Assembly (NCBI GenBank): GCA_030697685.1
Contig: JAUYPF010000043.1
Span: forward strand, 1 to 26,257
Length of the DNA: 26,257 bases
Source: a bacterium
Lineage (GTDB): Archaea; Nanobdellota; Nanobdellia; SCGC-AAA011-G17; GW2011-AR17
Reading direction: 5' to 3'
In this document: piece by piece, positions 1,786 to 22,744 of the stretch
Layout of the letters: each line of letters opens with the position of its first letter
How positions within the stretch are numbered: position 1 is the first letter of the stretch
Translations under genes and position numbers: made by a program
The notes under the pieces: model-generated
Databases searched by the model: none
Told to the model about the DNA's origin: nothing
Seen by the model: the letters and a program-made list of their open reading frames with translations, nothing else

Positions 1786-2636
1786 ACAAGCCAAAAGCTT
1801 ATGTTAATGATGCAAAGAAGCAAGTAGTCAAATCCTTGTCAAAGCAAATTCAAGAATATCCTATTATTGGCCTTGTAGACATGGAAAATCTTCCTGCAAT
1901 GCAATTACAAAAAATGAAGAAATCCCTTCGTGGAAAAGTAGTGATTGCAATGGCAAAGAAGAGATTGATTAAACTGGCATTAAAACAATCTCCAAAAGGA
2001 TTAACAGAACTATCTGAGAGAATTCGTGGTATGCCTGCACTTATTTTCACAAAAGAAAATCCTTTCAAACTCTACAAAACTCTTTCAGCAAGCAAAAGCC
2101 CAGCACCTGCAAAAGCAGGACAGCATGCACCAAAAGATATTATTGTTCCAGCAGGAAAAACCAGCTTTGCCCCTGGGCCAATTATTGGAGAGCTTGGTCA
2201 ACTAGGTATCAAGGCTGGTATTGAAGATGGAAAAGTTGCAATTAAACAAGATAAAGTTCTTCTGAAAGAAGGAGAACTAGTAACAAAAAAAATTGCAGAA
2301 GTATTAACACGATTAAATATTCTTCCTATGGAAGTAGGTTTGAATATTGTTGCAGTTTTTGAGAATGGTATTATTTTCGATAGAAAAGTTCTTGAGATTG
2401 ATGACAAGATCTATCTTGCAAACCTCATTAAATCACATAATGAAGCAATGAACTTAGCTGTTAAAATTGGTTATATTTCAAAAGACACGATTAATGTACT
2501 ACTCAGCAAAGCACATAGAGAGGCAATGGCCCTTGCAGATGGAAAAGATATCCTGACAAGCGACAATGTCAACAAACTCTTGGCAAAAGCTGAAGCACAA
2601 GCAAATGCTTTAAAGAAAAAAGCACATATTGAATAG
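1782..2636 (+). CDS. rplP0: Ribosomal stalk protein P0 (L10 family, archaeal)
   Basis: 284 aa. The N-terminal L10 domain and an alanine/lysine-rich C-terminal tail are typical of archaeal P0. Position between L1 and P1 fits. Confidence 0.9.
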   Translation: MNKPKAYVNDAKKQVVKSLSKQIQEYPIIGLVDMENLPAMQLQKMKKSLRGKVVIAMAKKRLIKLALKQSPKGLTELSERIRGMPALIFTKENPFKLYKTLSASKSPAPAKAGQHAPKDIIVPAGKTSFAPGPIIGELGQLGIKAGIEDGKVAIKQDKVLLKEGELVTKKIAEVLTRLNILPMEVGLNIVAVFENGIIFDRKVLEIDDKIYLANLIKSHNEAMNLAVKIGYISKDTINVLLSKAHREAMALADGKDILTSDNVNKLLAKAEAQANALKKKAHIE

Positions 2637-3940: not shown

Positions 3941-4444
3941 TTACTTCTTCACAATTTCTTGAACATCACTCCAAATAGGAATAGTTTTAACTTTATATTT
4001 TTCTACAAGCAAAATCCACACTCCTGCAACAAAAATTGTTGATACAAGATGCCAAAATAAAATATGCACTGCATCAAAATAGTTATTCCCATAGTTAATA
4101 TAAACGAAAATGAGTACTAATATTCGTACTATATTCAAAGAAAAAATAAAAATACTTCCTAAAAAAAACATTTTCAGTCCTTGAAGAAAAGAAATACCTC
4201 TAGTAAGAAGAAGTAATTCTAAAAGCAGTACATATGCCAATGTTGCAGCACATGCAGGGATAAAAGAAAAACTCACCTCTGCAAATTGCACGCTCATTCC
4301 ATATATTTGTACATCATAAAAAATTTGTAAAAGAAAATAACTCACATAAAAAGTAATAGGTAAGAAAAATAAAGAAAACAATCCGCTGCTTAATCCAACA
4401 AGCAAAGCGAAACTATAACGAATAAGAATGGATTTCATAAGCAT
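3941..4444 (-). CDS. Short exosortase/archaeosortase-family membrane protein (putative)
   Basis: 167 aa, about 5 TM helices. Cys in a TM helix (FIPACAATLAY), Asn-x-x-Arg-Ile (SLNIVRILVL) and a later His (FWHLV) match the Cys/Arg/His signature of exosortase/archaeosortase transpeptidases. Recognised by motif order only. Confidence 0.45.
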   Translation of the reverse strand: MLMKSILIRYSFALLVGLSSGLFSLFFLPITFYVSYFLLQIFYDVQIYGMSVQFAEVSFSFIPACAATLAYVLLLELLLLTRGISFLQGLKMFFLGSIFIFSLNIVRILVLIFVYINYGNNYFDAVHILFWHLVSTIFVAGVWILLVEKYKVKTIPIWSDVQEIVKK

Positions 4445-5490
4445 ATTTTAGGGGGATGTTTTAGAAGTTCATCAATAATTGTTATGCCAGATAAAATGTC
4501 TTTACTATTTACAATCCCAATGCCGCTATGCACATTTCTTACAGGAACTCCCAATACTGTGGTTGGAATTCCTCCTTTTGAAAGAGAAATATACAAAGCA
4601 TCTGTTGTTCCGAAATCACTAACCCCTGGTTGTAAACCTAGTTTTTTCTTTTTAGCAATATCCTTAATATTGTTATTTAAACAGCTATTAGAAAGTGTCT
4701 GCGAATCCATAATAGAAAGTACAGGACCTTTTCCTAATGCTCGTGTCATATCACCGCCTATATCATTGGCATCAAGTACATCAATGACAAGCGCCCACTC
4801 AGGATTAAGATTATATACAGAAGTCTTTGCTCCATACAAGCCAACTTCTTCTTGTACTGTAAACACAAAATAAATTTCTCCAGGATATTTTTTTACTTTT
4901 TTAATCAATTCCAGAAGTATAAAACAACCAACTCTATCATCAGCCGCCTTTCCCATAATATAATCTTTTGATCCTAAATAATGAGCTCTTTTTTCAAATT
5001 CAACAAATGTTCCAACTTCAACACCTATTTTCTGTAATTCAATTTTACTCAGCCCTGTATCCACAAATAAGTCTTCTTTTTTTGGAAGTTCTGTTATTGT
5101 TTCTCCAGAGCTAAGTTTTGAAGTAGAAATAATCCCCATAATTGTTTTTTTTCCATTAACTGGAATGAGAACTTTTTGATTAAGACATGCAAGTGTATCA
5201 ATGCCACCTATAGGAGAAATTTTAAGAGTCCCATCTACATTAATTTTATTTACCATAAGTCCAACTTCATCCATGTGTGCAACAAGCATCACACTTTGTC
5301 CTTTCCCTTTCTTATGCACAATTAAATTTCCGAACTTATCTACTTGCATATCTTTACAATAAGGCTTAATTTTTTTCATAAGATATGAACGAATAGCACT
5401 TTCATGTCCACTTGTAGAAAGAACATTCATTAGGGAAATCAACTCTTCCATAGGATTATATAAAGAAATAATCCTTATAAACTTTTGCAA
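4435..5490 (-). CDS. M42 family (TET/FrvX-like) aminopeptidase
   Basis: 351 aa with motifs typical of M42 peptidases (HMDEVGLMV, GKAADDRVGC, QEEVGLYGA). The true start may be the internal Met at 5451 (MEELISLMN...). Confidence 0.85.
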   Translation of the reverse strand: MQKFIRIISLYNPMEELISLMNVLSTSGHESAIRSYLMKKIKPYCKDMQVDKFGNLIVHKKGKGQSVMLVAHMDEVGLMVNKINVDGTLKISPIGGIDTLACLNQKVLIPVNGKKTIMGIISTSKLSSGETITELPKKEDLFVDTGLSKIELQKIGVEVGTFVEFEKRAHYLGSKDYIMGKAADDRVGCFILLELIKKVKKYPGEIYFVFTVQEEVGLYGAKTSVYNLNPEWALVIDVLDANDIGGDMTRALGKGPVLSIMDSQTLSNSCLNNNIKDIAKKKKLGLQPGVSDFGTTDALYISLSKGGIPTTVLGVPVRNVHSGIGIVNSKDILSGITIIDELLKHPPKICL

Positions 5491-11127: not shown

Positions 11128-12765
11128 ATGGACAAGGAGATAGAAAAATGGGCTTTGCATAATGCAGTTAAATTCCAAGGAAAAGCAAATCCAGGTGCAG
11201 TACTAGGTCAACTGTTTGCAGAGAATCCCAAACTCAAAGAACAAGCAAAAGAACTCTCAAAAAAGATCCAAGAGATTGTCAAGCAAGTTAACAGTCTTTC
11301 TCCTGAAGAACAAAGAAAAAAATTAGAGAAGCTAGCTCCAGAACTTCTCGAAGAAAAGAAAGAAAAGAAAAAAAGGGAATTACCAGAGCTTCCAAATGTG
11401 CATGGAACTGTTGTAACAAGAATTCCTCCTGAACCTAGTAAATATTTACATTTAGGCCATGCAATGTCTTTCTTAATTAATTATATGTATGCAAAAAAAT
11501 ACAATGGGAAATGTATTCTTCGCATAGATGATACAAATCCGGACAAAGCAAAAAAAGAATATTACGATGCTTTGCATGAAGATCTTCTCTGGTTACGCAT
11601 TGCTCCAGATAAAACAATTATTGCTTCTCAAGAGATGGAAACTTTTTACAAATATGCAGAGCTACTCATAAACAAAGAACGTGCATATGTTTGTTTTTGT
11701 GATAAAGAAAAAGTAAGTAAATTTAGAATGCAGGCAAAAATCTGTGACCATAGAACGCAGAATCCAGAAAAAAATATGATTCTTTGGAAAGATATGCTTG
11801 CAAAGAAATACAAAGCTGGAGAAGTAACTTTACGTTTAGTTGGAGAAATGGACTGTACAAATGCAGTCATGCGTGATCCTATTCTCTTTAGAATTGTCAA
11901 AGCACAACATACTCTAACAAAAGATAAATATGTAGTCTGGCCAACCTATGATTTCGAAACAGTGATTGGAGAAGAGATTACTGGAGTAACGCATATTTTA
12001 CGAAGTAATGAATTTGGAGAAATGCGTATAGAACTCCAAGATTATATTAAAGATATTTTAGGATTTAAAAAACAAGAAGTTTTGCAATATGGAAGAATGA
12101 CAGTTCATGGTTTTGAAACGCATGGTCGTGTGATTAGAGAGAAAATAGAGAATGGTGAAGTAGAAGGCTGGGATGATCCAAGATTGATGACTTTGAAAGC
12201 CCTTCGAAGAAGAGGTATTGTTCCAGAAACTTTTTATGAGTTAGTCTTAGAAGTTGGTCTTTCTCCAACTGCAACAAATCTTGATTGGAGTGTTGTTGCT
12301 TCTATTAACAGAAAAATTATCGATCCAACAACGAAAAGATATTTTTTCGTGAAAGATCCTAAAAAAATAAAAATAAATAATACTTTGAAACAAGCAAAAG
12401 CTCCATTACATCCTGAACATAAAGAAATGGGCTTCAAAACAATTCATTTTGATGATGAGTTTTATGTGCAAGATGATATTGAGAATGGAAAAATATATCG
12501 TTTTATGCATCTCTTTAACTTTAAAGATAATAGTTATGTATCAGAAGAATACGATCCTGAGCTAAAAGCAAAAATTATTCATTGTGTTCCAATCAAAGAT
12601 GCTGTGGATATTCATGTTCTCATGGCAGATGGTTCTCTTATAAAAGGAAAAGGAGAGAAGGCTTTAAAAGAACTCAAAGAAGGTGAAGTTATCCAATTTG
12701 AACGATTATTCTTCTGTCGTTTGGATAATAAAGAAAAAATGCTTTTTGTGTATACGCATGATTAA
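11128..12765 (+). CDS. gltX: Glutamyl-tRNA synthetase, archaeal type
   Basis: Class I HIGH motif in PEPSKYLHLGHA and archaeal or eukaryotic-type GluRS architecture. I placed the start at the internal Met (MDKEIEKWALHNAV...). That is the conserved archaeal GluRS N-terminus. The ORF-track start at 11074 adds 18 residues. Confidence 0.88.
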   Translation: MDKEIEKWALHNAVKFQGKANPGAVLGQLFAENPKLKEQAKELSKKIQEIVKQVNSLSPEEQRKKLEKLAPELLEEKKEKKKRELPELPNVHGTVVTRIPPEPSKYLHLGHAMSFLINYMYAKKYNGKCILRIDDTNPDKAKKEYYDALHEDLLWLRIAPDKTIIASQEMETFYKYAELLINKERAYVCFCDKEKVSKFRMQAKICDHRTQNPEKNMILWKDMLAKKYKAGEVTLRLVGEMDCTNAVMRDPILFRIVKAQHTLTKDKYVVWPTYDFETVIGEEITGVTHILRSNEFGEMRIELQDYIKDILGFKKQEVLQYGRMTVHGFETHGRVIREKIENGEVEGWDDPRLMTLKALRRRGIVPETFYELVLEVGLSPTATNLDWSVVASINRKIIDPTTKRYFFVKDPKKIKINNTLKQAKAPLHPEHKEMGFKTIHFDDEFYVQDDIENGKIYRFMHLFNFKDNSYVSEEYDPELKAKIIHCVPIKDAVDIHVLMADGSLIKGKGEKALKELKEGEVIQFERLFFCRLDNKEKMLFVYTHD

Positions 12766-12828
12766 ACTATTTTCACTACTCTTTCTAAATAAACTAGGTA
12801 TATAAACACCTTTAAAATTTCATTTCTT

Positions 12829-13503
12829 ATGGAACTTCTCAAGTTAGAAAATGTATATAAGATATATTCTTTAGGAGAAGAAAACATAGCCGCAATAAAC
12901 GGCATTTCTTTATTGATAAATAAAGGCGACTTTGTTGCTTTGATTGGCCCATCTGGTTCAGGAAAAAGTACTGCAATGAATTTAATTGGTTGCTTAGACA
13001 TTGCGAGCAAAGGAAATATGTATCTCAATGGTCTAAACATTCAAAACCTTCCTGAAAGTAACCTCGCACAAATTCGTGGAAAGAAGATTGGCTTCATTTT
13101 TCAAACATTTAATCTCATTCCAAGCTTAGACGCTCTAGAGAATGTTGCCCTTCCTATGACTTTCCAAAATGTTCCAAGACCTATTCGCATAAAAAGAGCA
13201 AAAGAATTGCTAAAACAAGTAGGTCTTGCAGATAGAATCTACCATTTACCAAATCAACTTTCTGGAGGCCAAAAACAAAGAGTCGCAATCGCTCGTTCTC
13301 TAATAAATGATCCAGATATTATCCTTGCAGATGAGCCAACAGGAAATTTAGATACAAAAACTGGTGATGAAATTATGAATATCTTAGTAGATCTCAACAA
13401 AAAAGGAAAAACAATAATCCTTGTAACACATAATCATGAACTTACCAAGTTAGCAAATAAAATAATTACACTCAAAGATGGAAAAGCTATGGAGGCACAA
13501 TGA
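12829..13503 (+). CDS. ABC transporter ATP-binding protein (LolD/MacB-like)
   Basis: Walker [11 protein letters not shown]-loop, signature [15 protein letters not shown], Walker [13 protein letters not shown]-loop VTHN. Confidence 0.9.
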
Positions 13504-14336
13504 AAACACAAAAACAACTGCTATTACTTTTATTTATATTAAGTATAACTCTGCATATAGTCTCTGCACAAATTGCAATAGATTCTTTTTCTGCAAATAC
13601 AGTACAGCCAGGTGAAGAAGCTGAATTAACTATTAGTTTAGAAAACGTAGGTGATGAAGATATAAAAAATATAATTATAAGCCTTGATTTAGCAGAACTT
13701 CCTTTTGCACCTATAGAATCTTCAAGTGAACAGATTATAGAAGAGATTCAGGAAAATGAAGAAGAAACAGTTTCTTTCCAGCTTCAAGCATTAGCAGATG
13801 CGGAGCCACGAACTTATAAAATCCCAGTCACTATTAGTTATGAAAATACTACTAAAAGTTCTCTAGTGAGCATTGAAGTAAGCACGGAGGCCAGTATAGA
13901 AGTATTCGCAGAAAGCTTTGATCTTCTCATGCAGAATGAACAAGGTAAAGTTACAATAAAAATTATCAATACTGGATTAACAAAAATAAAATTTTTACAA
14001 ATGACACTTCAAGAAAGTTCTGGCTATGAAATTCTTTCTTCGAGTTCAGCATACATAGGTGATATTGATATTGGCGATTTTGAAACAGAAGAATTTACCA
14101 TTATACCTCTAAAAAAGAGTACAGAGTTAGAAGTAGAAATAGAATATAGGGATGCAAACAATGAACTTTTTACAGAAAAGTTAGAGCTGCCTTTAACAGT
14201 ATACACTGAAGAACAGGCAAAAGAACTGGGCTTGTCTCAAGATGGCCATACTTTCACATGGATTCTGATATTAGGGGTCATCATCATTGCATCCATAGTC
14301 TTCTTTAGAAGGAAGAGAAAAAAAAATGTTTACTGA
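13500..14336 (+). CDS. Secreted/anchored protein with two COG1361/CARDB-like beta-sandwich repeats
   Basis: N-terminal signal/TM (LLLLLFILSITLHIVSA). Two similar repeats (ELTISLENVGDEDIKNIIISL... and KVTIKIINTGLTKIKFLQMTL...). C-terminal TM plus RRKRKK basic tail. Overlaps both transporter genes (ATGA / ATG overlaps). Confidence 0.55.
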   Translation: MKTQKQLLLLLFILSITLHIVSAQIAIDSFSANTVQPGEEAELTISLENVGDEDIKNIIISLDLAELPFAPIESSSEQIIEEIQENEEETVSFQLQALADAEPRTYKIPVTISYENTTKSSLVSIEVSTEASIEVFAESFDLLMQNEQGKVTIKIINTGLTKIKFLQMTLQESSGYEILSSSSAYIGDIDIGDFETEEFTIIPLKKSTELEVEIEYRDANNELFTEKLELPLTVYTEEQAKELGLSQDGHTFTWILILGVIIIASIVFFRRKRKKNVY

Positions 14337-15510
14337 TTACTTTTTACTCTCTCTAAAAAGTATTCGCCATAGAAAATTACGTTCTTGGCTTACAGTAATT
14401 GGTATTGTGATTGGAGTTGCAGCAATTATCTCTCTAATGACATTATCAAGAAGTTTAGAAAACACAATTGAAGATCAGTTCGAAACATTTGGTGCAAATA
14501 GAATACTTATTTCAGCAAAAGGTTTTCATGGCCCAGGATCATTATCTCAAGGTCTAACAACAGAAGATGCTGAAACAATAAAAAAGATATCTGGTTTTGA
14601 GTATGTTATCTCTGGAATTTTTCGTTCGGCAGAAGTAAGATATAAAAATGAAATAGGATTTACAATTATAGGTGGCATTCCTTCAGAAATGTATGAAGAA
14701 TTCTATGGAGATACAGGTATTGAAATAGAAGGTGGGAGAAACATAAGAGAGGATGAGAAATATGTTGCAATTATTGGTTCTAGAGTTGCAACAGACATGT
14801 TTGAGAAAGATGTTCATGTAGGAGATAAGATTGAAATTGCACAGCAAGAGTTTCGTGTTGTTGGAATTCTTGAAGAAATTGGAAATGCACAGGATGATAA
14901 TCAAATTTCCATTTCTCTAGATGCTGCACGAGAAATTTTTGATGAAGAAGAAAGTATAGATCTAATTATTGCACAGGTAAAATCTACTTCTGATATTCCT
15001 CAATTGCAAGAAAAAATAGAAAAAGAATTAGAAAGAAAACGTGGTGATACAAATTTTCAAGTACTTACAGCCTCACAAATTCTAGAACAAATTAATCAAA
15101 TACTTGGGATTATGCAAATCGTCCTTGTAGGGATTGCAGCAATCTCCTTGATTGTTGGAGCAATTGGAATAATGAATTCAATGTATACTTCTGTCTTAGA
15201 GAGAACAAAAGAAATTGGTATTATGAAAGCAATTGGCGCACAAAATAAAGATATACTTACTATTTTCCTTATTGAATCTGGACTCATTGGTTTGGTCGGA
15301 GGGATTATTGGAACTATTTTAGGAACCTCTTTAGCATTAGCAGTAGGCCCTTTTTCAAAGAGTGCAGGTTTTACATTAAATATTACTATTGAACCTTTAG
15401 TGATTATTCTAGGATTACTCTTTGCATTTTGTGTAGGAATTATCGCAGGAGTATTACCTGCATGGCAAGCGTCAAGATTAAAACCAATTGATGCACTGCG
15501 GTATGAGTAA
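14326..15510 (+). CDS. ABC transporter permease, FtsX/MacB-like
   Basis: 394 aa with an N-terminal TM, a large extracytoplasmic domain and three C-terminal TM helices with the FtsX-family pattern. Confidence 0.85.
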   Translation: MFTDYFLLSLKSIRHRKLRSWLTVIGIVIGVAAIISLMTLSRSLENTIEDQFETFGANRILISAKGFHGPGSLSQGLTTEDAETIKKISGFEYVISGIFRSAEVRYKNEIGFTIIGGIPSEMYEEFYGDTGIEIEGGRNIREDEKYVAIIGSRVATDMFEKDVHVGDKIEIAQQEFRVVGILEEIGNAQDDNQISISLDAAREIFDEEESIDLIIAQVKSTSDIPQLQEKIEKELERKRGDTNFQVLTASQILEQINQILGIMQIVLVGIAAISLIVGAIGIMNSMYTSVLERTKEIGIMKAIGAQNKDILTIFLIESGLIGLVGGIIGTILGTSLALAVGPFSKSAGFTLNITIEPLVIILGLLFAFCVGIIAGVLPAWQASRLKPIDALRYE

Positions 15511-16173
15511 CTAAAGAATCTCTATGATTTCGCCTATTCTTTTCTTAAATTTATAGAGCATTGCTGGTCGATGAGAAACACCTTCAGTAAATTCCCCACT
15601 TTCTTCAACAATATCCAAAGAGAGTAGTTTTTTCCGAAAATTTCTTTTATCCAGTTGTTTGTGAAGAATGATCTCATAAATGTTTTGAAGTTGTGAAAGC
15701 GTAAATGTTTTAGGAAGGAGCTGAAATCCTACAGTGGTATATTCTAATTTCCAACGAAGTCTTTGAAGTCCATAATCAAGTATTTTTTTATGATCAAAGG
15801 CAAGCTTGGGGATTTTATTCACAGAGTACCATTGTGCTTCAGAAACATCCGTACTCGCTCTAATTTTTTGTATTTGTGAATTAATCAAAGCAAAGTATGC
15901 AACAGTAATAACCCTCCCCCTTGGATCCCTTCCAGGTTCTCCAAAAGTATAGAGCTGCTCTAAATAAATATCCTTAACCCCTGTTTCTTCGACGAGTTCC
16001 CTTTTTGCAGCATCTTCTAAAGATTCATCCTCTAAAACAAATCCTCCTGGAAGCGCCCACATATTCTTGAAAGGTTCAATTCCTCTTTTAATAAGAAGCA
16101 CTTTAAGGCTGTTATCAGTAATAGTAAAGACAATAAGATCAACAGTAACAGAAGATTTAGGGAATGCATGCAT
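15511..16173 (-). CDS. Nudix hydrolase fused to a C-terminal NrtR-type winged-helix domain (NrtR-like regulator)
   Basis: Nudix box GGFVLEDESLEDAAKRELVEETG. The C-terminal region with LDKRNFRKKLLSLDIVEESGE...HRPAMLYKF matches the winged-helix domain of Nudix-related transcriptional regulators. Confidence 0.7.
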   Translation of the reverse strand: MHAFPKSSVTVDLIVFTITDNSLKVLLIKRGIEPFKNMWALPGGFVLEDESLEDAAKRELVEETGVKDIYLEQLYTFGEPGRDPRGRVITVAYFALINSQIQKIRASTDVSEAQWYSVNKIPKLAFDHKKILDYGLQRLRWKLEYTTVGFQLLPKTFTLSQLQNIYEIILHKQLDKRNFRKKLLSLDIVEESGEFTEGVSHRPAMLYKFKKRIGEIIEIL

Positions 16174-16225
16174 CTTTGTGTATAAAGAACAATAAATATT
16201 TAAATCTAATGGTCAAATTCTATAA

Positions 16226-17173
16226 TCATGTAGTGCCTTTCTTTAATTTAACAATCCCCACTTGCATCTTTGCCGGTTGTATAGTCACTTTTTTTCCAGC
16301 AGTAAATTCCAAACAATCATTTTCAATTCCATCACTAAAGATAATACCATTTTCAGGCATGTGAGACACAATCTCCAGAGGTTGAGAATCACAAACTTTC
16401 CCATATACAAGTTTTGTTCCTGTAATTTTTGAAGAAAAAGGTTCACGAACACTATATACAAGGTATGGAGCATCATAGGGAAAAAGAGCCTCATTTTTTC
16501 TTTCTTCAACTTTTTCTTCTAATGCATCAACAATCCCTCTTGCACCACGAATAATAGAAGTAAGCCAACCACTAGATCCAGTACCTGTTGAGACAATAAT
16601 ACCGCTTGTAGATTGTTTTTCACTTTTACCAATATGTTTTATTGTATACCTTGAAGAGCTATGATTTCTTTTTCCAATAAATAAATCATTTAATGCATAC
16701 AGAACCTGTCCATCTTCTAATTGTGCTTCCGCCATAGTATGATATTCTAAAGCCCATGGTTCTCCAAGATATGACTTTGCAAGCATTTCAAATTCTGTGG
16801 GTGTACAAGAAGCAAGAACTCCATCAAATCTTTCAGTGTCAGTATTAACAAAGATCACTGGTTGTGCTTGGGCATATTTTGCTGTATTAACAAGTAACCC
16901 ATCATCACCTGCAACAATAATAAGATCCTTATCACTAAATTGATAGGTGCCAAGAAACTCTTTTTCAACTTGTTCTATACGCATTCCTCTTGGAATTCCA
17001 GCAAGTGTTTTTTTCATTCCATCTTTATACGCACTATCAGCTGCAACATAGTTCTCAAAAGATTCCCCTCTGCTTTCTAAATAAAAACGAACCTGAGAAA
17101 GCGTCGCATGACGCCGAATAAGCTCATCTAGTCCTGTTCTTCGATGTATAACAACTGCTTTCTCAAGTCCCAT
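16226..17173 (-). CDS. NAD kinase-family (ATP-NAD/diacylglycerol kinase fold) protein, divergent
   Basis: IIVAGDDGLL resembles the GGDGT motif. ALNDLFIGKR resembles the NE/D motif. GIIVSTGTGSSGWLTSI resembles the conserved DGlivsTPtGSTAYslSA segment. GGDGT is replaced by GDDG, so the substrate is uncertain. Confidence 0.6.
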   Translation of the reverse strand: MGLEKAVVIHRRTGLDELIRRHATLSQVRFYLESRGESFENYVAADSAYKDGMKKTLAGIPRGMRIEQVEKEFLGTYQFSDKDLIIVAGDDGLLVNTAKYAQAQPVIFVNTDTERFDGVLASCTPTEFEMLAKSYLGEPWALEYHTMAEAQLEDGQVLYALNDLFIGKRNHSSSRYTIKHIGKSEKQSTSGIIVSTGTGSSGWLTSIIRGARGIVDALEEKVEERKNEALFPYDAPYLVYSVREPFSSKITGTKLVYGKVCDSQPLEIVSHMPENGIIFSDGIENDCLEFTAGKKVTIQPAKMQVGIVKLKKGTT

Positions 17174-17181
17174 TTTTTCTC

Positions 17182-18048
17182 CTAACTCTTGAGTCCTGCA
17201 AGGACTTCAGGAACAATAGTAAGAGTTCCAATATTTTCTGCATTCTTACCAAGCAAATAAAGTGCATGTGCTCGAAGCTTTTCTGCGTCTATTCCTTCAA
17301 AAGCTTCCAATTCTAATTTAAGAGCCTTTGCTTTTGCCTGTGCTTCTGCTTCTATATTTCTTGCTTGTAAAGCAATAAGGTCTACTCGTCCTCTTTCTAG
17401 CTGTACATCAGTAGCGAGTTCATTTTCTTTAATAGCTCTTTCTTTTTCAACAGCAGCTGCACGTCTTGCATAAGAGGCTTCATCTGCTCTAGCTAAAAGA
17501 CTTTCTCTATAAGGTGTTTCCAATCCTGCAGCAATTTCCCTTTTTGGGGCTATAGATGAAAAATGAATAACATCAACAACAAGACCTCTTTCTTTGAAGA
17601 GAGAAGCTCTTTGTATCCCTTCTAAAACAGTATCAGAAAGTTCCGTACTTGCCATAAGTATTTCTTCTAATGGTCTTCCTTGAACAATAGCTCTTGTTTT
17701 TGCTCGTATCATTTCAAGTACAGCATCTGGCATTTTTTGTGGGCCATCCCCTTTGTATACACCTGTATGAGGATCAATTGCAAAGTTATAATGGTCCAAT
17801 ACTACACTTGGTTCTTTAACATTATATACAAAAGTCCCCTGAAGAGTAGCCTCTTGGTTATCTGCCGTTATTTCCTTAAATGAAAATGGTTGATCCAGAG
17901 CAGTCATGGCAAGTGATTCTACATTTGTTCGAAAAGGGAAATAAATACATGCAAGTCCTTTTCCTGTAGCAACAACTTTGCCATTAACAGTCATTCTTTG
18001 GTGATGTGTTGGTTCTCCCTTAAAATATCCAATAAAATTTTGTACCAT
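17182..18048 (-). CDS. SPFH/band-7 domain protein (flotillin/YqiK-like), no N-terminal TM evident
   Basis: Central SPFH-like region followed by an Ala/Glu-rich coiled coil (EAEAQAKAKALKLELEAFEG), typical of flotillin-like proteins. Codon composition is GC-richer than the window average. Confidence 0.7.
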   Translation of the reverse strand: MVQNFIGYFKGEPTHHQRMTVNGKVVATGKGLACIYFPFRTNVESLAMTALDQPFSFKEITADNQEATLQGTFVYNVKEPSVVLDHYNFAIDPHTGVYKGDGPQKMPDAVLEMIRAKTRAIVQGRPLEEILMASTELSDTVLEGIQRASLFKERGLVVDVIHFSSIAPKREIAAGLETPYRESLLARADEASYARRAAAVEKERAIKENELATDVQLERGRVDLIALQARNIEAEAQAKAKALKLELEAFEGIDAEKLRAHALYLLGKNAENIGTLTIVPEVLAGLKS

Positions 18049-18292
18049 TTTTGTCTCCTAAGTGTGTTTTATACACTTTAATACTGTAAAGAATACACTA
18101 ACATATATTTAAACCTTTCGAAAAGATAAAAGTAAGCTTATAAATACTTAAGGCTTAGTGAATTCCTTGACAGTAAATATGTACGAATGATTTTCTCATG
18201 GTCAAATGCAAATTTATTTTTTCCAAGCATATCAACGAGTTCTTCGAGACTGCAGAGCCATGCACTAGCTGCGTCATCACCAGAGCAGATTC

Positions 18293-18484
18293 TTGGCTCA
18301 GCTCTTTGCATTTGGTTTTTTCATTAACACATGGTTAGCAATATTTAATATGCTTCCTTTCTGGATTTTAGATGGAAAAAAGGTCTGGAGTTGGAATAAA
18401 ACTATCTACATCATCACTATGGTCTTTGCCATTGGTCTTTTAGTTATAGGCCAGTTCATTCCTTTACAATCATTAGGTATATAA
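18293..18484 (+). pseudogene. Remnant of a site-2 protease (M50 family) gene, C-terminal ~60 aa only
   Basis: NTWLAIFNMLPFWILDGKKV matches the conserved NxxxAxxNLLPxxxLDGG C-terminal motif of M50 metalloproteases. There is no HExxH-bearing upstream part. An in-frame stop lies a few codons upstream and the ORF needs a TTG start. Confidence 0.5.
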
Positions 18485-18508
18485 GTAAGTGAGAAATTCT
18501 CTGAAACA

Positions 18509-18853
18509 ATGGAAGATATTTATCGCTGGGGCATCGGATTTTTAATGGCGGATAGTCGATTAACTTCAGGACAAACAAGATATCTTATTGTTCAAGCTGC
18601 AACAATGTTTTGGGATGGTGAAGAAGAAAGAGACCTTCATCTAAAAATTGAAGGCAGAGATGATTTATGCTTAGAAGGAAGAATAACAACAAAAGGTGAA
18701 CCTGCTATCTTAGGTGGTCTCGTAGGAATACAATATGATGCAGAGATAAGTCTTGTAAGAGGAAAAGCAAAAGTGCGTTTTCTGATAAGTGAACAAACAG
18801 GAAGAGTATTTGGACAAGCAACGGGATCTTCTCTTGATGATTATAGCAACTAA
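18509..18853 (+). CDS. Hypothetical protein upstream of the ABC1 kinase
   Basis: 114 aa, no confident family. Same strand and close spacing to the kinase suggest co-transcription. Confidence 0.4.
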   Translation: MEDIYRWGIGFLMADSRLTSGQTRYLIVQAATMFWDGEEERDLHLKIEGRDDLCLEGRITTKGEPAILGGLVGIQYDAEISLVRGKAKVRFLISEQTGRVFGQATGSSLDDYSN

Positions 18854-18892
18854 ACAAAAACATTTTTAAACTTCCTCGGCTCAAGATGAACT

Positions 18893-20566
18893 ATGGCTTT
18901 CATAAGTGCAATACGAAGATTTTCTCGATTAAAAGAAATAGTAAATCTTTTGATGAAAGAAGGCTTTGAAGAAATAATTCAACAATTGCATTTTCATACA
19001 CCTCTTCTCATAAGCAAAGTATCTTTAGAACCAACAAAAAAACAAACAAACAACATTCCAATACGCTTACGTAGAGTTATGGAGAATGCAGGTGGTGCTT
19101 TGGTAAAAGTAGGACAAATGCTTTCCTTGCGTGCAGATCTTATCCCTCAAGAGTATTGTGATGAGTTTGCAAAATTACAAGATTCTGTCAAACCTTTTCC
19201 TTATGCACAAATAAAAACCATACTTGAAGCAGAATATAAAAAACCTTTAAAAGATGTTTTCAAAGAATTTGAAGAAAAACCTATTGCTGCTGCATCCATA
19301 GGCCAAGTACATAAAGCTCGCTTAAAAACTGGAGAACTTGTTGCAGTAAAAGTACAAAGACCTGATATCAAGAAAACCTTTGAAGCAGATATAGATCTTC
19401 TCTATTACATTGCGGAGGAAGCAGAAAAATATATCCCAGACTTGAAAGCTTTCAAACCAAAAAAAATTGTTGGAGAGTTTGAGAAATACACAGAAAAAGA
19501 ACTAGACTTTCTTGCAGAAGCGAAGAACATTGATATTTTCTATGAAAAATACAAATATAGTCCACAAATAAAAATTCCAAAAGTCTACTGGGAATATACA
19601 ACCAGTAAAGTAATTACTATGGAATTTATTGATGGAAAAAAAATCTCAGAAATAGATACTTTAACCAAAGAAGAGAAAAAGAAAATTACTATGACTTTGT
19701 ACAAAAGCATTATAGAACAAGTATTTGAAATGCATATTTTTCATGCAGACCCACATCCAGGAAATATTTTCTTAATGAAAAATGGAAAAATAGCTTTTTT
19801 AGATTTTGGCATTGTTGGAAGATTGTCTCCAGATCTCAAAGAAAATGTAGAATACATGCTTGTTGGCTTGGTAAAAGGTGATACTGACCTTTTAGTACGA
19901 AGTTTCAATGGCTTAGGCATGATAGGAGACATTGATGAGCAAAAATTCAAAGAAGATTTGTTTGAAGCTTGGGGGGAGTTTCATAGTTCTTCATTGAAAC
20001 AAATAAATATGAAGCGTTTCTTTAATAGTACATTTGAAATAGGAAGAAAATACAATATTGAGTTTCCACATAATTTCGTTCTATTAGTAAAGGCAGTGGT
20101 CACCACAGAGGGCTTTGCAAAACAGCTTTATCCTGAAGCAAACTTTATAGAAGTCTGCAAATCACAAGTGGAGCATCTTTTGCAAAAAGAACGTGATCCA
20201 AAAAATTTGTATAACTCCTTCAAGAAAGGAGCCTTTGATTTTACTACTACTTTGAAAAAATTTCCGCAAGATTTAAGAACTCTTGTGCATCTATTAAAGA
20301 CAGGAACAAAAGTTAAAGTTGAGATTGATCACAAAGAGTTGAATGATCTGACTTTAGAACTAGATCGTTCCAGCAATCGCCTAACATTTGGTGTTATCAT
20401 TGGAGGCCTTTCAATTACCACAGGTTTATTGATTGTTGCTGATGTCCATCCAAAACTTTGGGGACTTCCTATCTATGCTTGGGGAAGTGCAGCATTGATA
20501 TTCATATTGTCATTAATTTTGACAGTGTCTATATTTAGAGAAAAAAGGAGAGGTGAAGAAGAGTGA
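18893..20566 (+). CDS. ABC1/UbiB-family atypical protein kinase with C-terminal TM helices
   Basis: The ATP-binding region AAASIGQVHKARLKTGELVAVKVQRPDI is diagnostic of the ABC1/aarF/UbiB family. The catalytic region includes HADPHPGNIF. Two C-terminal TM helices. Confidence 0.85.
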   Translation: MAFISAIRRFSRLKEIVNLLMKEGFEEIIQQLHFHTPLLISKVSLEPTKKQTNNIPIRLRRVMENAGGALVKVGQMLSLRADLIPQEYCDEFAKLQDSVKPFPYAQIKTILEAEYKKPLKDVFKEFEEKPIAAASIGQVHKARLKTGELVAVKVQRPDIKKTFEADIDLLYYIAEEAEKYIPDLKAFKPKKIVGEFEKYTEKELDFLAEAKNIDIFYEKYKYSPQIKIPKVYWEYTTSKVITMEFIDGKKISEIDTLTKEEKKKITMTLYKSIIEQVFEMHIFHADPHPGNIFLMKNGKIAFLDFGIVGRLSPDLKENVEYMLVGLVKGDTDLLVRSFNGLGMIGDIDEQKFKEDLFEAWGEFHSSSLKQINMKRFFNSTFEIGRKYNIEFPHNFVLLVKAVVTTEGFAKQLYPEANFIEVCKSQVEHLLQKERDPKNLYNSFKKGAFDFTTTLKKFPQDLRTLVHLLKTGTKVKVEIDHKELNDLTLELDRSSNRLTFGVIIGGLSITTGLLIVADVHPKLWGLPIYAWGSAALIFILSLILTVSIFREKRRGEEE

Positions 20567-21638: not shown

Positions 21639-22013
21639 TTACTTGTACAACATTCCTCTCTGCTCTTTAAGCCATCTTTCAAAATCGAGTACAGAAAGAT
21701 CCTTTTGAGGGTTTGAGCTGTAATAATCAAAATGAATATCTAGGTCTCTATAAACCAAATACCATTCTTGCCTATCTGTAAAAGAATTCTTATCAATATT
21801 CGCTTCAAGAGAAACAGTCTTGTAAAGTGTATCCTTCTTTTGTTCGTATTCTACATAGTCTTCAACAACTGCACTCAATTTCTGAAAAATTGGGTATGCA
21901 TATTTGCTAGATATACAAGTAACACCAATAGATGTTCCTAAAATTCCTAAAAGTACACGATCAATAGTATTCATCTTTTTAGGATTTAAGAAGAGGTTAA
22001 TAAGCCTTTGCAA
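21639..22013 (-). CDS. Hypothetical protein, possible lipoprotein or membrane-anchored
   Basis: 124 aa. An internal Met (MNTIDRVLLGILGTSIGVTCISS) gives a signal/lipobox-like N-terminus. No family recognised. Divergent from rpl7ae. Confidence 0.4.
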   Translation of the reverse strand: MQRLINLFLNPKKMNTIDRVLLGILGTSIGVTCISSKYAYPIFQKLSAVVEDYVEYEQKKDTLYKTVSLEANIDKNSFTDRQEWYLVYRDLDIHFDYYSSNPQKDLSVLDFERWLKEQRGMLYK

Positions 22014-22080
22014 GGGAAACCTTTATAAGGAGCCTCTTTCTCCTCATCTGAAAACCAATGACAGGTTGGAGGTTTATATC

Positions 22081-22428
22081 ATGGATGAAAAACAATTAGC
22101 TGAGAAGGCCTATGAAGCTGTTGAAATAGCAAAAACTTCTGGGAAACTTAAACGTGGAACAAACGAAGTAACAAAGACAGTAGAAAAAGGTCTTGCAAAA
22201 CTTGTAGTAGTTGCAAAAGATACTGCTCCTGCAGAAATAATCATGCACCTTGGTCCTTTATGCAAGGAAAAGAAAGTTCCTATGGTAACAGTTCCAAGTA
22301 AAGTAGAATTAGGAACCGCAGCAGGAATGCCGATTGGTGCAAGTGCAATTGCAATTGTGCAAGAAGGCGAAGCAAAGAATATAATTAAACAAATTTCAGA
22401 TTATGTAAACGAAAATGGCAGCTCCTAA
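22081..22428 (+). CDS. rpl7ae: 50S ribosomal protein L7Ae
   Basis: [55 protein letters not shown] is the L7Ae/L30e K-turn binding fold. I placed the start at the internal Met 22081. The ORF-track start at 21904 adds an implausible extension. Confidence 0.9.
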
Positions 22429-22744
22429 AAAAGAAGGTAAAGAAGAGAAAAAACCAGCTCAAACTGATGGAAAACCAGTAGTAGCGCAAGCTCCTGCAGT
22501 AAATCCAACAGACAAGCCTAGAGCTTCTATTTTCACAGAAGCTGTCCCTGCACGTGTAGAAGAAATCATTGGCAGAACAGGAACACGAGGAGAAATTATC
22601 CAAGTGCGCTGTAAAATTCTTGATGGCAGAGATGTAAACAAAATTCTCTCTCGAAACGTGAAAGGTCCAGTGCGCTTAAAGGACATTCTTATGTTGAGAG
22701 AAACAGAAATTGAAGCAAGAAAGCTCAATAAGGGGAAACGATAA
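22415..22744 (+). CDS. rps28e: 30S ribosomal protein S28e with a ~40-aa Lys/Pro/Ala-rich N-terminal extension
   Basis: The core [49 protein letters not shown] matches S28e. The only in-frame start is ATG 22415, which overlaps the rpl7ae 3' end by 14 nt. Confidence 0.85.

What the first reader, a model, noticed from the sequence alone, without database searches (positions are those of the whole stretch)
15511..18484. GC-richer block with bacterial-flavoured genes (NrtR-like Nudix regulator, NAD-kinase-family protein, SPFH protein) next to an M50 protease gene remnant
Three co-directional minus-strand genes run 18048 to 15511 with tight spacing. They encode proteins rich in A/R/G/L, unlike the rest of the window.

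The Nudix protein carries the C-terminal winged-helix domain characteristic of NrtR NAD-metabolism regulators (NFRKK...HRPA motif). From established knowledge these are mainly bacterial. It sits directly downstream of a divergent NAD-kinase-fold enzyme, where GDDG replaces GGDGT. An NrtR-like regulator plus an NAD(P)-related kinase plus an SPFH scaffold is not a described operon.

Immediately upstream lies only the last ~60 codons of an M50 site-2 protease. It carries the NxxxAxxNLLPxxxLDG motif, needs a TTG start and has an upstream in-frame stop. That suggests the block was inserted into, or recombined next to, a disrupted protease gene.

A 56-codon minus-strand ORF (about 18148-18315, MQRAEPRICSGDD...) overlaps the GC-rich patch and could be a leader peptide of the operon.
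Basis: partly seen in the sequence, partly recalled or inferred. Interest (0 to 1): 0.55.

Follow-up and report, generated by a model that had tools for sequence, protein, structure and literature searches.

The report
Archaeal NrtR-controlled SPFH–NAD-kinase operon
This is an archaeal copy of a widespread, long-noticed but still uncharacterised three-gene unit (an NAD-sensing repressor, a scaffold protein and a mitochondrial-type NAD kinase), sitting in its ancestral place next to a rearrangement scar, not a recently imported bacterial island.

Summary
The three minus-strand genes are real and the domain calls are right: an NrtR-family Nudix regulator, an NAD-kinase-fold protein and an SPFH protein. 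The interpretation mostly fails.

- **Composition:** GC and GC3 are ordinary for this window.
- **Origin:** the contig is archaeal and Woesearchaeota-like. The kinase falls in an archaeal clade, and two relatives carry the same genes between the same neighbours (M50/ABC1 and GluRS). The block is therefore ancestral, not inserted.
- **Novelty of the operon:** SPFH lies directly upstream of the kinase in 71 of 80 genome loci, and NrtR is nearby in 30. The layout in Proteus mirabilis matches the "nrtR<#>nrtX-nrtY" unit of unknown function predicted by Rodionov et al. in 2008.
- **Operator:** The same layout is conserved in relatives.
- **Kinase:** its closest solved relative is human mitochondrial NADK2. 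In Woesearchaeota the pair sits inside NAD-salvage operons.
- **M50 piece:** it is a true remnant, matching residues 139–204 of a 204-residue protease.
- **"Leader peptide":** this ORF is the C-terminal remnant of a Nudix gene. The two remnants meet at 18287|18288, exactly where an independent assembly of the sample breaks.

The parts
15511..16173 (-). nrtR: Nudix-related transcriptional regulator (220 aa). The Nudix box is intact (G-x5-E-x7-RELVEETGV) and a C-terminal winged helix is present. It is the last gene of the operon.
   Evidence: Pfam NUDIX 7.3e-23 and NrtR_WHD 1.4e-27. PDB: AraR 5bs6 at E 3.7e-52 and Shewanella NrtR 3gz5 at 4.2e-39, both full length. NCBIfam NF050029 scores 195 bits, below its 400-bit cut-off. 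It is 66% identical to the NrtR of syntenic L083.
16226..17173 (-). nrtY-like NADK2-type NAD-kinase-fold protein (315 aa). Motifs: GDDGL, NDLFIG, GTGSSGW, IFSDGIE.
   Evidence: The family profile's best PDB match is human NADK2 7r4j, E 2.8e-18; canonical NadK scores about 1e-4. AF2 pLDDT is 87.6. Foldseek top hits are NADK2 at E 5e-21 and TM 0.72-0.74, and all top 50 hits are NAD kinases. More than 2600 homologues were found.
17182..18048 (-). nrtX-like SPFH/Band-7 protein (288 aa). It has an SPFH domain and a roughly 70-residue coiled-coil helix, with no membrane anchor. It is the first gene of the operon.
   Evidence: Pfam Band_7 6e-12. AF2 pLDDT is 82.8, with a helix at 177-248. Foldseek matches HflK/C, stomatin, erlin and prohibitin at 1e-13 to 1e-10. 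The maximum 19-residue hydropathy is 0.87. An SPFH gene lies directly upstream of the kinase in 71 of 80 loci.
18055..18059 (-). Shine-Dalgarno-like AGGAG, 6 nt upstream of the SPFH ATG.
   Evidence: Read directly from the sequence. It is conserved in L083 and L084.
18059..18079 (.). Proximal NrtR box AAAGTGTATAAAACACACTTA (minus strand).
   Evidence: Exact match to AGTGT-N7-ACACT. The core agrees with the NrtR consensus in PMC2330246. The same box is found in L083, and similar boxes in many bacterial loci.
18081..18101 (.). Distal, weaker NrtR box TTAGTGTATTCTTTACAGTAT (minus strand), 22 nt start-to-start from the proximal box.
   Evidence: It is the only other match with at most 1 mismatch in the 26-kb window. 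It is conserved in L083 as TTAGTGTACTATTTACATCAT. Tandem boxes 22-33 nt apart also occur in Proteus, Streptomyces and several gammaproteobacterial loci.
18104..18120 (-). Archaeal-type promoter: TATA box TTTAAATATA (18113 to 18104) preceded by a purine-rich BRE-like CGAAAGG (18120 to 18114).
   Evidence: Read directly from the sequence. The region 18049-18123 is 76% identical over 75 nt to the promoter region of L083, and CGAAAG plus an A/T-rich TATA box also occur in L084/L091. Promoter function is inferred, not shown.
18138..18287 (-). Remnant of a Nudix (ADP-ribose pyrophosphatase type, possibly NMNAT-Nudix) gene. Only the last roughly 49 codons and the natural stop remain.
   Evidence: 44% identity over 43 aa (E 4e-11) to the Nudix domain of the Nudix-NMNAT protein of Woesearchaeota locus L003. 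A weaker match covers the C-terminus of the L089 NMNAT-Nudix protein.
18288..18484 (+). Remnant of an M50 metalloprotease gene, the last roughly 65 codons. The HExxH half and the start are missing.
   Evidence: 84% identity to residues 139-204 of 204-aa M50 proteins such as P0145. The M50 gene is intact in L083, L084 and L091. There is an in-frame stop at 18266-18268. The junction with the Nudix remnant at 18287|18288 coincides with the 30-nt overlap (18288-18317) of Logan contigs L001 and L002.

Best explanation
Region 15511-18120 is a Woesearchaeota-type copy of the NrtR-controlled nrtX-nrtY unit. A single archaeal promoter (BRE/TATA at 18104-18120) drives three genes: SPFH (nrtX), an NADK2-like kinase (nrtY) and nrtR.

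**Proposed mechanism**
- NrtR dimers bind the two AGTGT-N7-ACACT boxes, which lie between the TATA box and the start codon. Binding there would block transcription initiation, so the regulator represses its own operon.
- An NAD-derived effector is expected to release the repressor. ADP-ribose is the effector of characterised NrtR proteins.
- The kinase then most likely phosphorylates NAD(H) to NADP(H).
- The anchor-less SPFH protein most likely forms an oligomeric ring or cage that organises or restrains the kinase.

**History of the locus**
- The unit is inherited vertically in this lineage and sits in its ancestral position.
- Compared with relatives, this lineage has lost nadE from the operon.
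- A deletion or replacement fused the 3' part of an upstream Nudix gene to the 3' part of the divergent M50 gene, at 18287|18288. It left two dead fragments and preserved the operon promoter.

**Shown:** gene content, families, folds, conservation of the gene pair, conservation and position of the boxes, synteny, and the two remnants.

**Inferred:** repression, the effector, kinase substrate, SPFH-kinase interaction, and the order of evolutionary events.
For: - **Families and folds:**
- **Gene pairing:** SPFH is co-directional and directly upstream of the kinase in 71 of 80 genome loci from many bacterial phyla and some archaea. NrtR is within the locus in 30 of 80.
- **Operator:** boxes of the form GT-N7-AC with palindromic flanks are 10-fold enriched in the 280-nt zones around the SPFH, NrtR and kinase gene starts (0.66 against 0.066 per kb) and share the TTAGTGT...ACACTAA form. 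In this window the only two matches lie side by side upstream of SPFH. This fits the published NrtR consensus.
- **Prior description:** PMC2330246 lists 'nrtR<#>nrtX-nrtY' for Proteus mirabilis. The P. mirabilis locus L085 has a divergent NrtR, two boxes, then SPFH and the kinase.
- **Link to NAD metabolism:** in Woesearchaeota the pair is embedded among pncB, pncA, NAMPT, nadE, NMNAT/Nudix and ADP-ribosylglycohydrolase genes.
- **Vertical descent:** L083 and L091 share the neighbourhood ABC1-M50 | SPFH-kinase(-nadE)-NrtR ... GluRS-PUA ... M42 ... L10. Identities to L083 for the module (57-66%) are in line with the flanking ABC1 at 76%. The promoter is 76% identical over 75 nt. The kinase falls in an archaeal clade. 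GC3 is ordinary.
- **Remnants:**
- **The junction is read-supported:** every 31-mer that spans it lies inside Logan contig L001.
Against: - No experiment exists for any nrtX or nrtY protein.
- The kinase misses Pfam's NAD_kinase threshold. About a quarter of family members (41 of 154) have GDPG, GDAG or GDSG, which lack the canonical third-position Asp of GGDG. The substrate could therefore be something other than NAD.
- The regulator's best solved relative is the arabinose-responsive AraR rather than an ADP-ribose-responsive NrtR. It also scores below the NCBIfam equivalog cut-off. The effector is therefore uncertain.
- That nrtX-nrtY means SPFH plus kinase is inferred from the matching arrangement. 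The held text of the paper gives no locus tags.
- The two closest relatives have no Nudix gene between M50 and the promoter. Whether the Nudix piece is ancestral or was brought in by recombination is unresolved.
- The tree is a neighbour-joining sketch without support values.
Confidence: 0.8

Rival explanations
1. A GC-richer block of bacterial genes was recently transferred into this archaeal genome and landed in, or recombined next to, the M50 protease gene, disrupting it.
For: - The NrtR family and the nrtXY pair are mostly bacterial.
- The regulator is more similar to some gammaproteobacterial NrtRs (56-58%) than to the one in Woesearchaeota locus L003 (49%).
- M50 is truncated right next to the block.
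Against: - GC and GC3 are within the window's normal range.
- The same operon sits beside an intact M50, between the same flanking genes, in L083 and L091/L084.
- The kinase clusters with Woesearchaeota sequences.
- The promoter is archaeal in form and conserved with L083.
- An ancient bacterial origin of the module is not excluded. Recent insertion is.
Confidence: 0.04
2. The M50/Nudix junction is an assembly artefact, or represents only a minority strain. The real or dominant genome carries an intact M50 gene, and perhaps an intact Nudix gene.
For: - An independent k=31 assembly of run SRR13727529 breaks exactly here. Contig L001 ends at 18317 and L002 starts at 18288, an overlap of 30 nt, which is k-1. 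This means the 30-mer has a second left-hand context in that sample, as an intact M50 allele would give.
- This roughly 200-aa M50 is highly conserved across the clade, at 55-85% identity.
Against: - All 31-mers that span the junction are contained in L001, so sequenced molecules carry it.
- The NCBI contig, produced independently, has the same join with 1 mismatch in 6915 nt.
- The 30-mer is unique within the window.
- No contig carrying the alternative context was found among the listed M50 homologues, and the exact 26-mer from the junction was absent from JGI metagenome contigs.
Confidence: 0.12
3. The module is not about NADP synthesis. In this view the kinase-fold protein acts on another substrate, such as ADP-ribose, NaAD or a lipid, or is a non-catalytic ligand sensor. 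The SPFH-kinase pair would then be a stress or defence device triggered by NAD breakdown products.
For: - Many bacteria that carry the pair are culturable genera such as Paenibacillus, Rhizobium and Proteus, which from general knowledge also have a canonical NadK. The pair would then be accessory. I did not test this here.
- Variants such as GDPG lack the canonical Asp.
- In most bacterial loci no other NAD gene lies nearby.
- The unit occurs on plasmids.
- ADP-ribose, the known NrtR effector, is a product of NAD cleavage (PMC2330246).
Against: - All top structural matches are NAD kinases, and NADK2 is matched along the full length.
- The nucleotide-site motifs NDxxxG and GxGSTGW are nearly invariant.
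- In Woesearchaeota the pair sits inside NAD-salvage operons, where an NAD kinase is the logical last step.
- There are no PADLOC hits for the kinase or SPFH.
Confidence: 0.25
4. The 57-codon ORF at 18138-18311 is a functional leader peptide or small protein of the operon.
For: It is an open frame with an ATG, lying upstream of and co-directional with the operon.
Against: - Residues 7-49 align with the C-terminus of Nudix domains.
- Its first 8 codons are the reverse complement of bona fide M50 coding sequence.
- It lies upstream of the conserved promoter, not between promoter and operon.
- Relatives L084 and L091 lack it entirely.
Confidence: 0.02

Closest known systems
nrtR / nrtX-nrtY units predicted by Rodionov et al. 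2008 (PMC2330246): Proteus mirabilis, Hahella chejuensis, Streptomyces, Kineococcus, Frankia
   Same: - A Nudix/winged-helix regulator lies next to a two-gene operon.
- That operon is preceded by palindromic boxes with a GT-N7-AC core.
- P. mirabilis locus L085 shows NrtR <two boxes> SPFH-kinase. A Streptomyces plasmid shows two boxes followed by an 'SPFH domain-containing protein' and a 'hypothetical protein'.
   Different: - Here the host is a DPANN-type archaeon.
- The regulator is the last gene of the same operon rather than divergent or separate.
- The boxes lie downstream of an archaeal TATA box.
- The paper left the function as '?' and, in the held text, does not say what nrtX and nrtY encode.
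Human mitochondrial NAD kinase NADK2 (PDB 7r4j, 7n29) and, from general knowledge, plant NADK3
   Same: - It is the best sequence-profile match (E 2.8e-18, from residue 4 onwards) and the best structural match (TM 0.72-0.74).
- Both share a long N-terminal helical extension and a GTGS-x-x-W motif.
   Different: - Identity is only 20-22%.
- The motif is GDDG or GxDG instead of GGDGT.
- Activity is untested.
- The protein is obligatorily paired with an SPFH gene, which is not known for NADK2.
Characterised NrtR/AraR regulators (Shewanella NrtR 3gz5; Bacteroides AraR 5bs6)
   Same: Full-length similarity, the same two-domain architecture and the same type of operator.
   Different: - The target genes are SPFH and the kinase, rather than nadV/prs/pncB or arabinose genes.
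- The effector is unknown.
- It scores below the NCBIfam equivalog cut-off.
Cage-forming SPFH proteins (HflK/C, stomatin, QmcA-YbbJ, prohibitin, erlin, flotillin)
   Same: SPFH domain followed by a long coiled-coil helix and a C-terminal segment.
   Different: - No N-terminal membrane anchor.
- No NfeD or FtsH partner gene adjacent.
- The conserved partner is a kinase.

Membership tests
NrtR family of Nudix-related transcriptional regulators | N-terminal Nudix-like domain | tested here: met
   Pfam NUDIX 7.3e-23, residues 14-133. The Nudix box G-x5-E-x7-REUxEExGU is intact by direct reading.
NrtR family of Nudix-related transcriptional regulators | C-terminal NrtR-type winged-helix DNA-binding domain | tested here: met
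   PF21906 NrtR_WHD at 1.4e-27, covering model positions 1-61 of 61. Full-length alignment to 5bs6 and 3gz5.
NrtR family of Nudix-related transcriptional regulators | Roughly 21-bp palindromic operator with a GT-N7-AC core upstream of regulated genes (PMC2330246) | tested here: met
   Two boxes at 18059-18079 and 18081-18101. They are the only matches in the window, are conserved in L083, and are enriched 10-fold in the start zones of homologous loci.
NrtR family of Nudix-related transcriptional regulators | NCBIfam equivalog NF050029 (ADP-ribose-responsive repressor), score at or above the cut-off | tested here: not met
   195 bits against a 400-bit cut-off. It is a family member but not that equivalog.
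NrtR family of Nudix-related transcriptional regulators | DNA binding relieved by ADP-ribose | not testable with these tools
   Needs EMSA or a reporter assay.
nrtX-nrtY operon (Rodionov 2008) | Two-gene operon of unknown function preceded by NrtR box(es), adjacent to or co-occurring with nrtR | tested here: met
nrtX-nrtY operon (Rodionov 2008) | The genes are the same families as the published nrtX and nrtY | tested here: inconclusive
   The P. mirabilis arrangement matches the published 'nrtR<#>nrtX-nrtY'. No locus tags or supplement were available.
NAD kinase (NadK / NADK2) family | Two-domain NAD-kinase fold | tested here: met
   All Foldseek top-50 hits are NAD kinases, with NADK2 at E 5e-21 and TM 0.72-0.74.
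NAD kinase (NadK / NADK2) family | Pfam PF01513 at or above the gathering score | tested here: not met
   17.9 bits against 25.5. NCBIfam NadK equivalogs score 17-36 bits against cut-offs above 200.
NAD kinase (NadK / NADK2) family | GGDG(T/N) motif | tested here: not met
   GDDGL here. Family counts: GDDGL 39, GDPGL 35, GQDGL 33 and GPDGL 29 of 154.
NAD kinase (NadK / NADK2) family | NAD(H) phosphorylation activity | not testable with these tools
   Enzyme assay needed.
SPFH / Band 7 | SPFH domain above the Pfam threshold, followed by a coiled coil | tested here: met
   46.4 bits against 23.6. Helix at 177-248 and matches to HflK/C and stomatin.
SPFH / Band 7 | N-terminal membrane anchor, typical of stomatin, HflK/C and prohibitin | tested here: not met
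   Maximum 19-residue hydropathy is 0.87. 110 of 120 homologues also lack a hydrophobic segment.
Intact M50 (site-2-type) metalloprotease gene | HExxH zinc site in the N-terminal half | tested here: not met
   Only the equivalent of residues 139-204 of 204 is present. No M50 sequence is found upstream in any frame.
Intact M50 (site-2-type) metalloprotease gene | C-terminal N-x3-A-x2-N-x-x-P-x3-LDG segment | tested here: met
   INTWLAIFNMLPFWILDG. Pfam M50 positions 161-190.

The most novel reading that the evidence does not exclude
nrtX-nrtY may encode a previously unrecognised, widespread prokaryotic device. It would be an NADK2-type NAD(H) kinase that works inside or on a soluble, membrane-free SPFH cage and is switched on by an NAD-breakdown signal through NrtR. 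In genome-reduced Woesearchaeota it would be the NADP-forming step of the salvage operon. The family may also represent the prokaryotic stock from which mitochondrial NADK2 and plant NADK3 derive.
Probability: 0.3. Interest if true: 0.55.

Novelty: new member of a known kind. Interest (0 to 1): 0.3.

Why it matters
**For this window:** the apparent foreign island is ordinary. It is a vertically inherited regulon member with a small rearrangement scar beside it.

**More broadly:**
- The nrtX-nrtY pair has stood as "function unknown" since 2008, although it occurs in many bacterial phyla, on plasmids and in several archaeal lineages.
- The kinase partner is of the mitochondrial NADK2 type, and the SPFH partner has no membrane anchor.
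- In Woesearchaeota the pair sits inside NAD-salvage operons.
- Together these points give a concrete hypothesis that could be tested with two recombinant proteins and one DNA fragment.
- The locus is also an example of an NrtR-type repressor working on an archaeal TATA promoter.

Tried and rejected
- **Rfam:** a scan of the window, L083 and L084 for a structured RNA under the "GC-rich patch" gave no matches.
- **PADLOC:** no defence-system hit for the kinase or SPFH. There was only a generic Nudix hit for NrtR.
- **tRNA scan:** none found, so there is no integration-site signature.
- **Literature:** SPFH+NrtR, SPFH+"NAD kinase" and NADK2+stomatin returned nothing relevant. PMC9503650 mentions NrtR but not this pair. 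The supplements of PMC2330246 are not held.
- **Search for the second context of the junction 30-mer:**
  - It is not in the window.
  - Its core 26-mer is not in JGI metagenome contigs.
  - No N-terminal M50 fragment ending in the junction sequence was among the 120 best M50 homologues.
- **Search for a close full-length relative of the Nudix remnant** in metagenome contigs gave nothing.
- **L083's 105-codon ORF** between promoter and SPFH has no Pfam family and no Nudix similarity.
- **Standalone Nudix of L087** as the source of the remnant: similarity is not significant, E 3.5.
- **SPFH by sequence against the PDB:** no hit. Only the fold comparison worked.

Full report
**1. What is at the coordinates**

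Three minus-strand ORFs run from 18048 to 15511, with gaps of 8 and 52 nt.
- **15511-16173 (220 aa):** Pfam NUDIX (7.3e-23) plus the complete NrtR winged-helix domain (1.4e-27). It aligns over its full length with Bacteroides AraR (5bs6, E 3.7e-52) and Shewanella NrtR (3gz5, E 4.2e-39). It scores 195 bits on NCBIfam NF050029, below the 400-bit equivalog cut-off.
- **16226-17173 (315 aa):** a sub-threshold NAD_kinase hit only.
- **17182-18048 (288 aa):** Band_7/SPFH (6e-12).

The M50 fragment, its upstream in-frame stop, the small minus-strand ORF (actually 18138-18311) and the palindrome at 18060-18078 are all present.

**2. Composition**

- The window averages 33.4% GC.
- The three genes have GC of 0.354, 0.363 and 0.376, against 0.336 +/- 0.036 for the other 27 ORFs that I treated as genes.
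- Third-position GC is 0.253, 0.177 and 0.159, against 0.214 +/- 0.044.
- The small excess lies in codon positions 1 and 2 of the SPFH gene, so it reflects amino-acid content.
- Equal or higher GC windows occur elsewhere in the window.

There is no compositional signal of recent transfer.

**3. Host**

The contig encodes L1, L10/P0 with the archaeal/eukaryotic insertion domain, L7Ae, S28e and a class-Ic GluRS. It is therefore archaeal, although the public record names its proteins "[bacterium]". The nearest homologues of the kinase are from Candidatus Woesearchaeota.

**4. The gene pair is a conserved module**

I searched one genome per species with an alignment of kinase homologues. This gave at least 586 loci, of which the best 80 were kept.
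- In 71 of the 80, an SPFH gene lies directly upstream and co-directional. The distance from the SPFH match start to the kinase start is 855-1874 nt, median 1013.
- In 30 of the 80, an NrtR homologue is within the locus, either upstream, divergent or downstream.
- The hosts span Pseudomonadota, Bacillota, Planctomycetota, Abditibacteriota, Chloroflexota, Bacteroidota and others, plus Woesearchaeota, Methanosarcinales and Heimdallarchaeota.
- The unit also occurs on plasmids of Rhizobium, Streptomyces and others, where it is annotated "sugar kinase" or "hypothetical protein" next to an "SPFH domain-containing protein".

**5. It has been noticed before**

Rodionov et al. 2008 (PMC2330246) state that most NrtR sites are 21-bp palindromes with the core GT-N7-AC. 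Their table lists a two-gene operon of unknown function, nrtX-nrtY. It appears as "nrtR<#>nrtX-nrtY" in Proteus mirabilis and also in Hahella, Streptomyces, Kineococcus and Frankia.

In a P. mirabilis record (L085) I find:
- an NrtR homologue on the opposite strand (2750 to 2136);
- two palindromic boxes at 2902 and 2927;
- SPFH from 2969 and the kinase at 4001-4906.

This is exactly the published arrangement, so nrtX is very probably the SPFH gene and nrtY the kinase gene. That identification is inferred: the held text gives no locus tags and no supplement is available. I found no later paper on nrtX or nrtY, and none linking SPFH with NrtR or NAD kinase.

**6. The operator**

I scanned all loci for 21-mers with GT-N7-AC and at least 4 of 5 complementary outer pairs.
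- There were 34 sites in the 51 kb within 250 nt upstream to 30 nt downstream of the SPFH, NrtR or kinase gene starts, against 62 in the remaining 941 kb. That is 0.66 against 0.066 per kb.
- The sites share one form, TTAGTGT-N7-ACACTAA, across phyla. They often occur as tandem pairs 22-33 nt apart.
- In the window, AGTGT-N7-ACACT with at most 1 mismatch occurs only twice in 26 kb, at 18061-18077 (exact) and 18083-18099. Both are in the 89-nt region upstream of SPFH. The whole window is expected to contain 0.68 by chance.

On the coding strand the region reads as follows:

CGAAAGG-TTTAAATATA-TG-TTAGTGTATTCTTTACAGTAT-T-AAAGTGTATAAAACACACTTA-GGAG-ACAAAA-ATG

This is a BRE/TATA-like element followed by two boxes that cover the expected start site and leader. 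Such a layout suits repression by promoter occlusion.

The same architecture is 76% identical over 75 nt in relative L083, and it recurs in L084/L091 with diverged boxes. Binding itself is untested.

**7. What the kinase is**

- The family has more than 2600 members in the word-indexed search.
- Its near-invariant motifs are GxDGL-VN-AKY, NDLFIG, SSSGIIVSTGxGSTGW and IFSDGIE.
- A profile of 19 members hits human mitochondrial NADK2 best (7r4j, E 2.8e-18, aligned from residue 4). Canonical NadK proteins follow at about 1e-4.
- An AlphaFold model (pLDDT 87.6) matches NADK2 best (E 5e-21, TM 0.72-0.74). All 50 top hits are NAD kinases.
- GDDG is a common family variant: GDDGL 39, GDPGL 35, GQDGL 33 and GPDGL 29 of 154. 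Notably, many archaeal members lack the third-position Asp.

**8. Context in Woesearchaeota**

| Locus | Gene order |
|---|---|
| L003 | NrtR - SPFH - kinase - PncB - PncA - NadE - Nudix/NMNAT |
| L087 | NAMPT/NAPRT - Nudix - SPFH - kinase - ADP-ribosylglycohydrolase - ... - NadE, with an NrtR gene 7 kb upstream |
| L089 | PncB-like - PncA - SPFH - kinase - NadE - NMNAT/Nudix |
| L083 | SPFH - kinase - NadE - NrtR |

An NAD kinase is the logical last step of such operons. This is the main reason I favour NAD(H) phosphorylation as the function. In most bacterial loci no other NAD gene is adjacent.

**9. The SPFH protein**

- The model (pLDDT 82.8) has the SPFH domain, a helix of about 70 residues (177-248) and short C-terminal helices.
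- It matches HflK/C, stomatin, erlin, prohibitin, QmcA and flotillin at E 1e-13 to 1e-8, and also major vault protein at about 1e-8 to 1e-6.
- It has no hydrophobic segment (maximum 19-residue hydropathy 0.87), and neither do 110 of 120 homologues.
- A soluble or peripheral ring or cage that holds the kinase is a reasonable inference, but nothing more than that.

**10. Not an insertion**

L083 comes from a different sample. Its identities to the window are kinase 59%, SPFH 57%, NrtR 66% and ABC1 76%. Its gene order is:

ABC1 <- M50 (205 aa) <- | -> ORF105 -> SPFH -> kinase -> NadE -> NrtR | DUF2127, GluRS, PUA, ..., M42 peptidase, ..., L10

This is the same neighbourhood and order as the window.

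The closest relative (L091/L084; kinase 78%, SPFH 72%) has ABC1 <- 62-aa ORF <- M50 (200 aa) <- 119 nt -> SPFH -> kinase.

A neighbour-joining tree places the window's kinase with all named Woesearchaeota sequences. The named bacteria fall outside, except for one MAG contig. The module has therefore been at this site since before these lineages split. An ancient bacterial origin remains possible.

**11. The scar**

- **M50 side.** The fragment is 84% identical to residues 139-204 of 204-aa M50 proteins such as P0145. Nothing upstream in any frame resembles the HExxH half.
- **Nudix side.** Residues 7-49 of the 57-codon ORF align with the end of the Nudix domain of L003's Nudix-NMNAT protein (44% over 43 aa, E 4e-11). 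They align more weakly with L089's NMNAT-Nudix C-terminus. Its first 8 codons are simply the reverse complement of M50 codons (FLAQLFAFG, as in L084 and P0145).
- **Junction.** Two 5'-truncated genes thus abut at 18287|18288.
- **What was replaced.** The conserved promoter begins about 15 nt beyond the Nudix stop codon. Compared with relatives, the first ~138 codons of M50 and the short spacer upstream of M50 are replaced by about 150 nt of Nudix 3' end.
- **Unresolved.** A Nudix gene directly upstream of SPFH exists in L087, but not in the two closest relatives. I cannot say whether a Nudix gene stood here ancestrally or the piece arrived by recombination.
- **nadE.** It is present between the kinase and NrtR in L083 and is absent here, where the gap is only 52 nt.

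**12. Is the junction real?**

Two Logan contigs from run SRR13727529 match the window:
- L001 = 11403-18317, with 1 mismatch;
- L002 = 18288-20028, with 0 mismatches.

Their 30-nt overlap (k-1 for k=31) starts exactly at the inferred junction.

All junction-spanning 31-mers lie inside L001, so sequenced molecules contain the join. The break means the first 31-mer of L002 has a second predecessor in that sample. The simplest reading is a co-existing sequence with M50 continuing leftwards, either an intact allele or a close strain.

I could not recover that sequence. Read mapping would settle it.

**13. Verdict**

The interpretation as a foreign, undescribed island inserted into a protease gene is not.

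The region is an archaeal member of the NrtR / nrtX-nrtY unit, in its ancestral position. It has a conserved TATA-plus-two-box promoter, flanked by a small rearrangement that killed M50 and a Nudix gene on this haplotype.

What remains interesting is general rather than local: the function of the very widespread pairing of an SPFH protein with an NADK2-like kinase is still untested.

Noticed in passing
window 1120-2636 and 21904-22744: The contig encodes archaeal ribosomal proteins (L10/P0 with the RL10P insert, L7Ae, S28e). The public record nevertheless labels its proteins 'MAG: ... [bacterium]', so the taxonomic label appears to be wrong.
   Followed up: partly
window 18288-18317; Logan contigs L001 and L002: An independent k=31 assembly of SRR13727529 breaks with a k-1 overlap exactly at the M50/Nudix junction. 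This implies a second sequence context for this 30-mer in the sample, possibly an intact M50 allele.
   Followed up: partly
window 16174-16225, compared with L083 8287-10011: Relative L083 carries a 574-aa NadE (CN_hydrolase + NAD_synthase) between the kinase and NrtR. The window has only a 52-nt gap there, so nadE has been lost from this operon.
   Followed up: partly
kinase family alignment (window residues 89-93): About a quarter of family members, mostly in the archaeal clade, have GDPG, GDAG or GDSG. These lack the Asp at the third position of the canonical GGDG motif but carry Asp at the second position. This may be a shifted catalytic residue or inactive members.
   Followed up: partly
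L004 (CAZIWT010000111.1, 'Thermodesulfobacteriota' MAG): Its kinase nests deep inside the Woesearchaeota clade in the neighbour-joining tree. This could be bin contamination or an archaeon-to-bacterium transfer.
   Followed up: no
window 18509-18853 (+): A 114-codon ORF between the M50 remnant and ABC1 has no family in Pfam, NCBIfam or PADLOC. L083 has only a degenerate 45-aa match at the same place, and L091 has a 62-aa ORF there.
   Followed up: partly
L083 6163-6480: In relative L083 the conserved TATA, two-box and SD promoter is followed by a 105-codon ORF with no detectable family, ahead of SPFH. It could be an extra small gene or a spurious ORF.
   Followed up: partly
L085 (NZ_OL790811.1 in the plasmid collection): This record is called a Proteus mirabilis 'plasmid' but is 4.08 Mb long, so it is evidently a chromosome. 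A tet(J) gene lies about 0.7 kb downstream of the kinase.
   Followed up: no
window 17182-18048 and its homologues: This SPFH subfamily lacks any membrane anchor in 110 of 120 homologues, which is unusual for SPFH proteins. Among the fold matches are vault (MVP) structures solved with PARP4 and ADP-ribose. I record this as a coincidence and do not interpret it.
   Followed up: partly
window 12829-15510: A three-gene MacB-type ABC transporter cluster (ATPase, a 278-aa secreted or anchored protein, and an FtsX/MacB permease) lies between GluRS and NrtR. It is absent from the syntenic position in L083, which has DUF2127 there.
   Followed up: no
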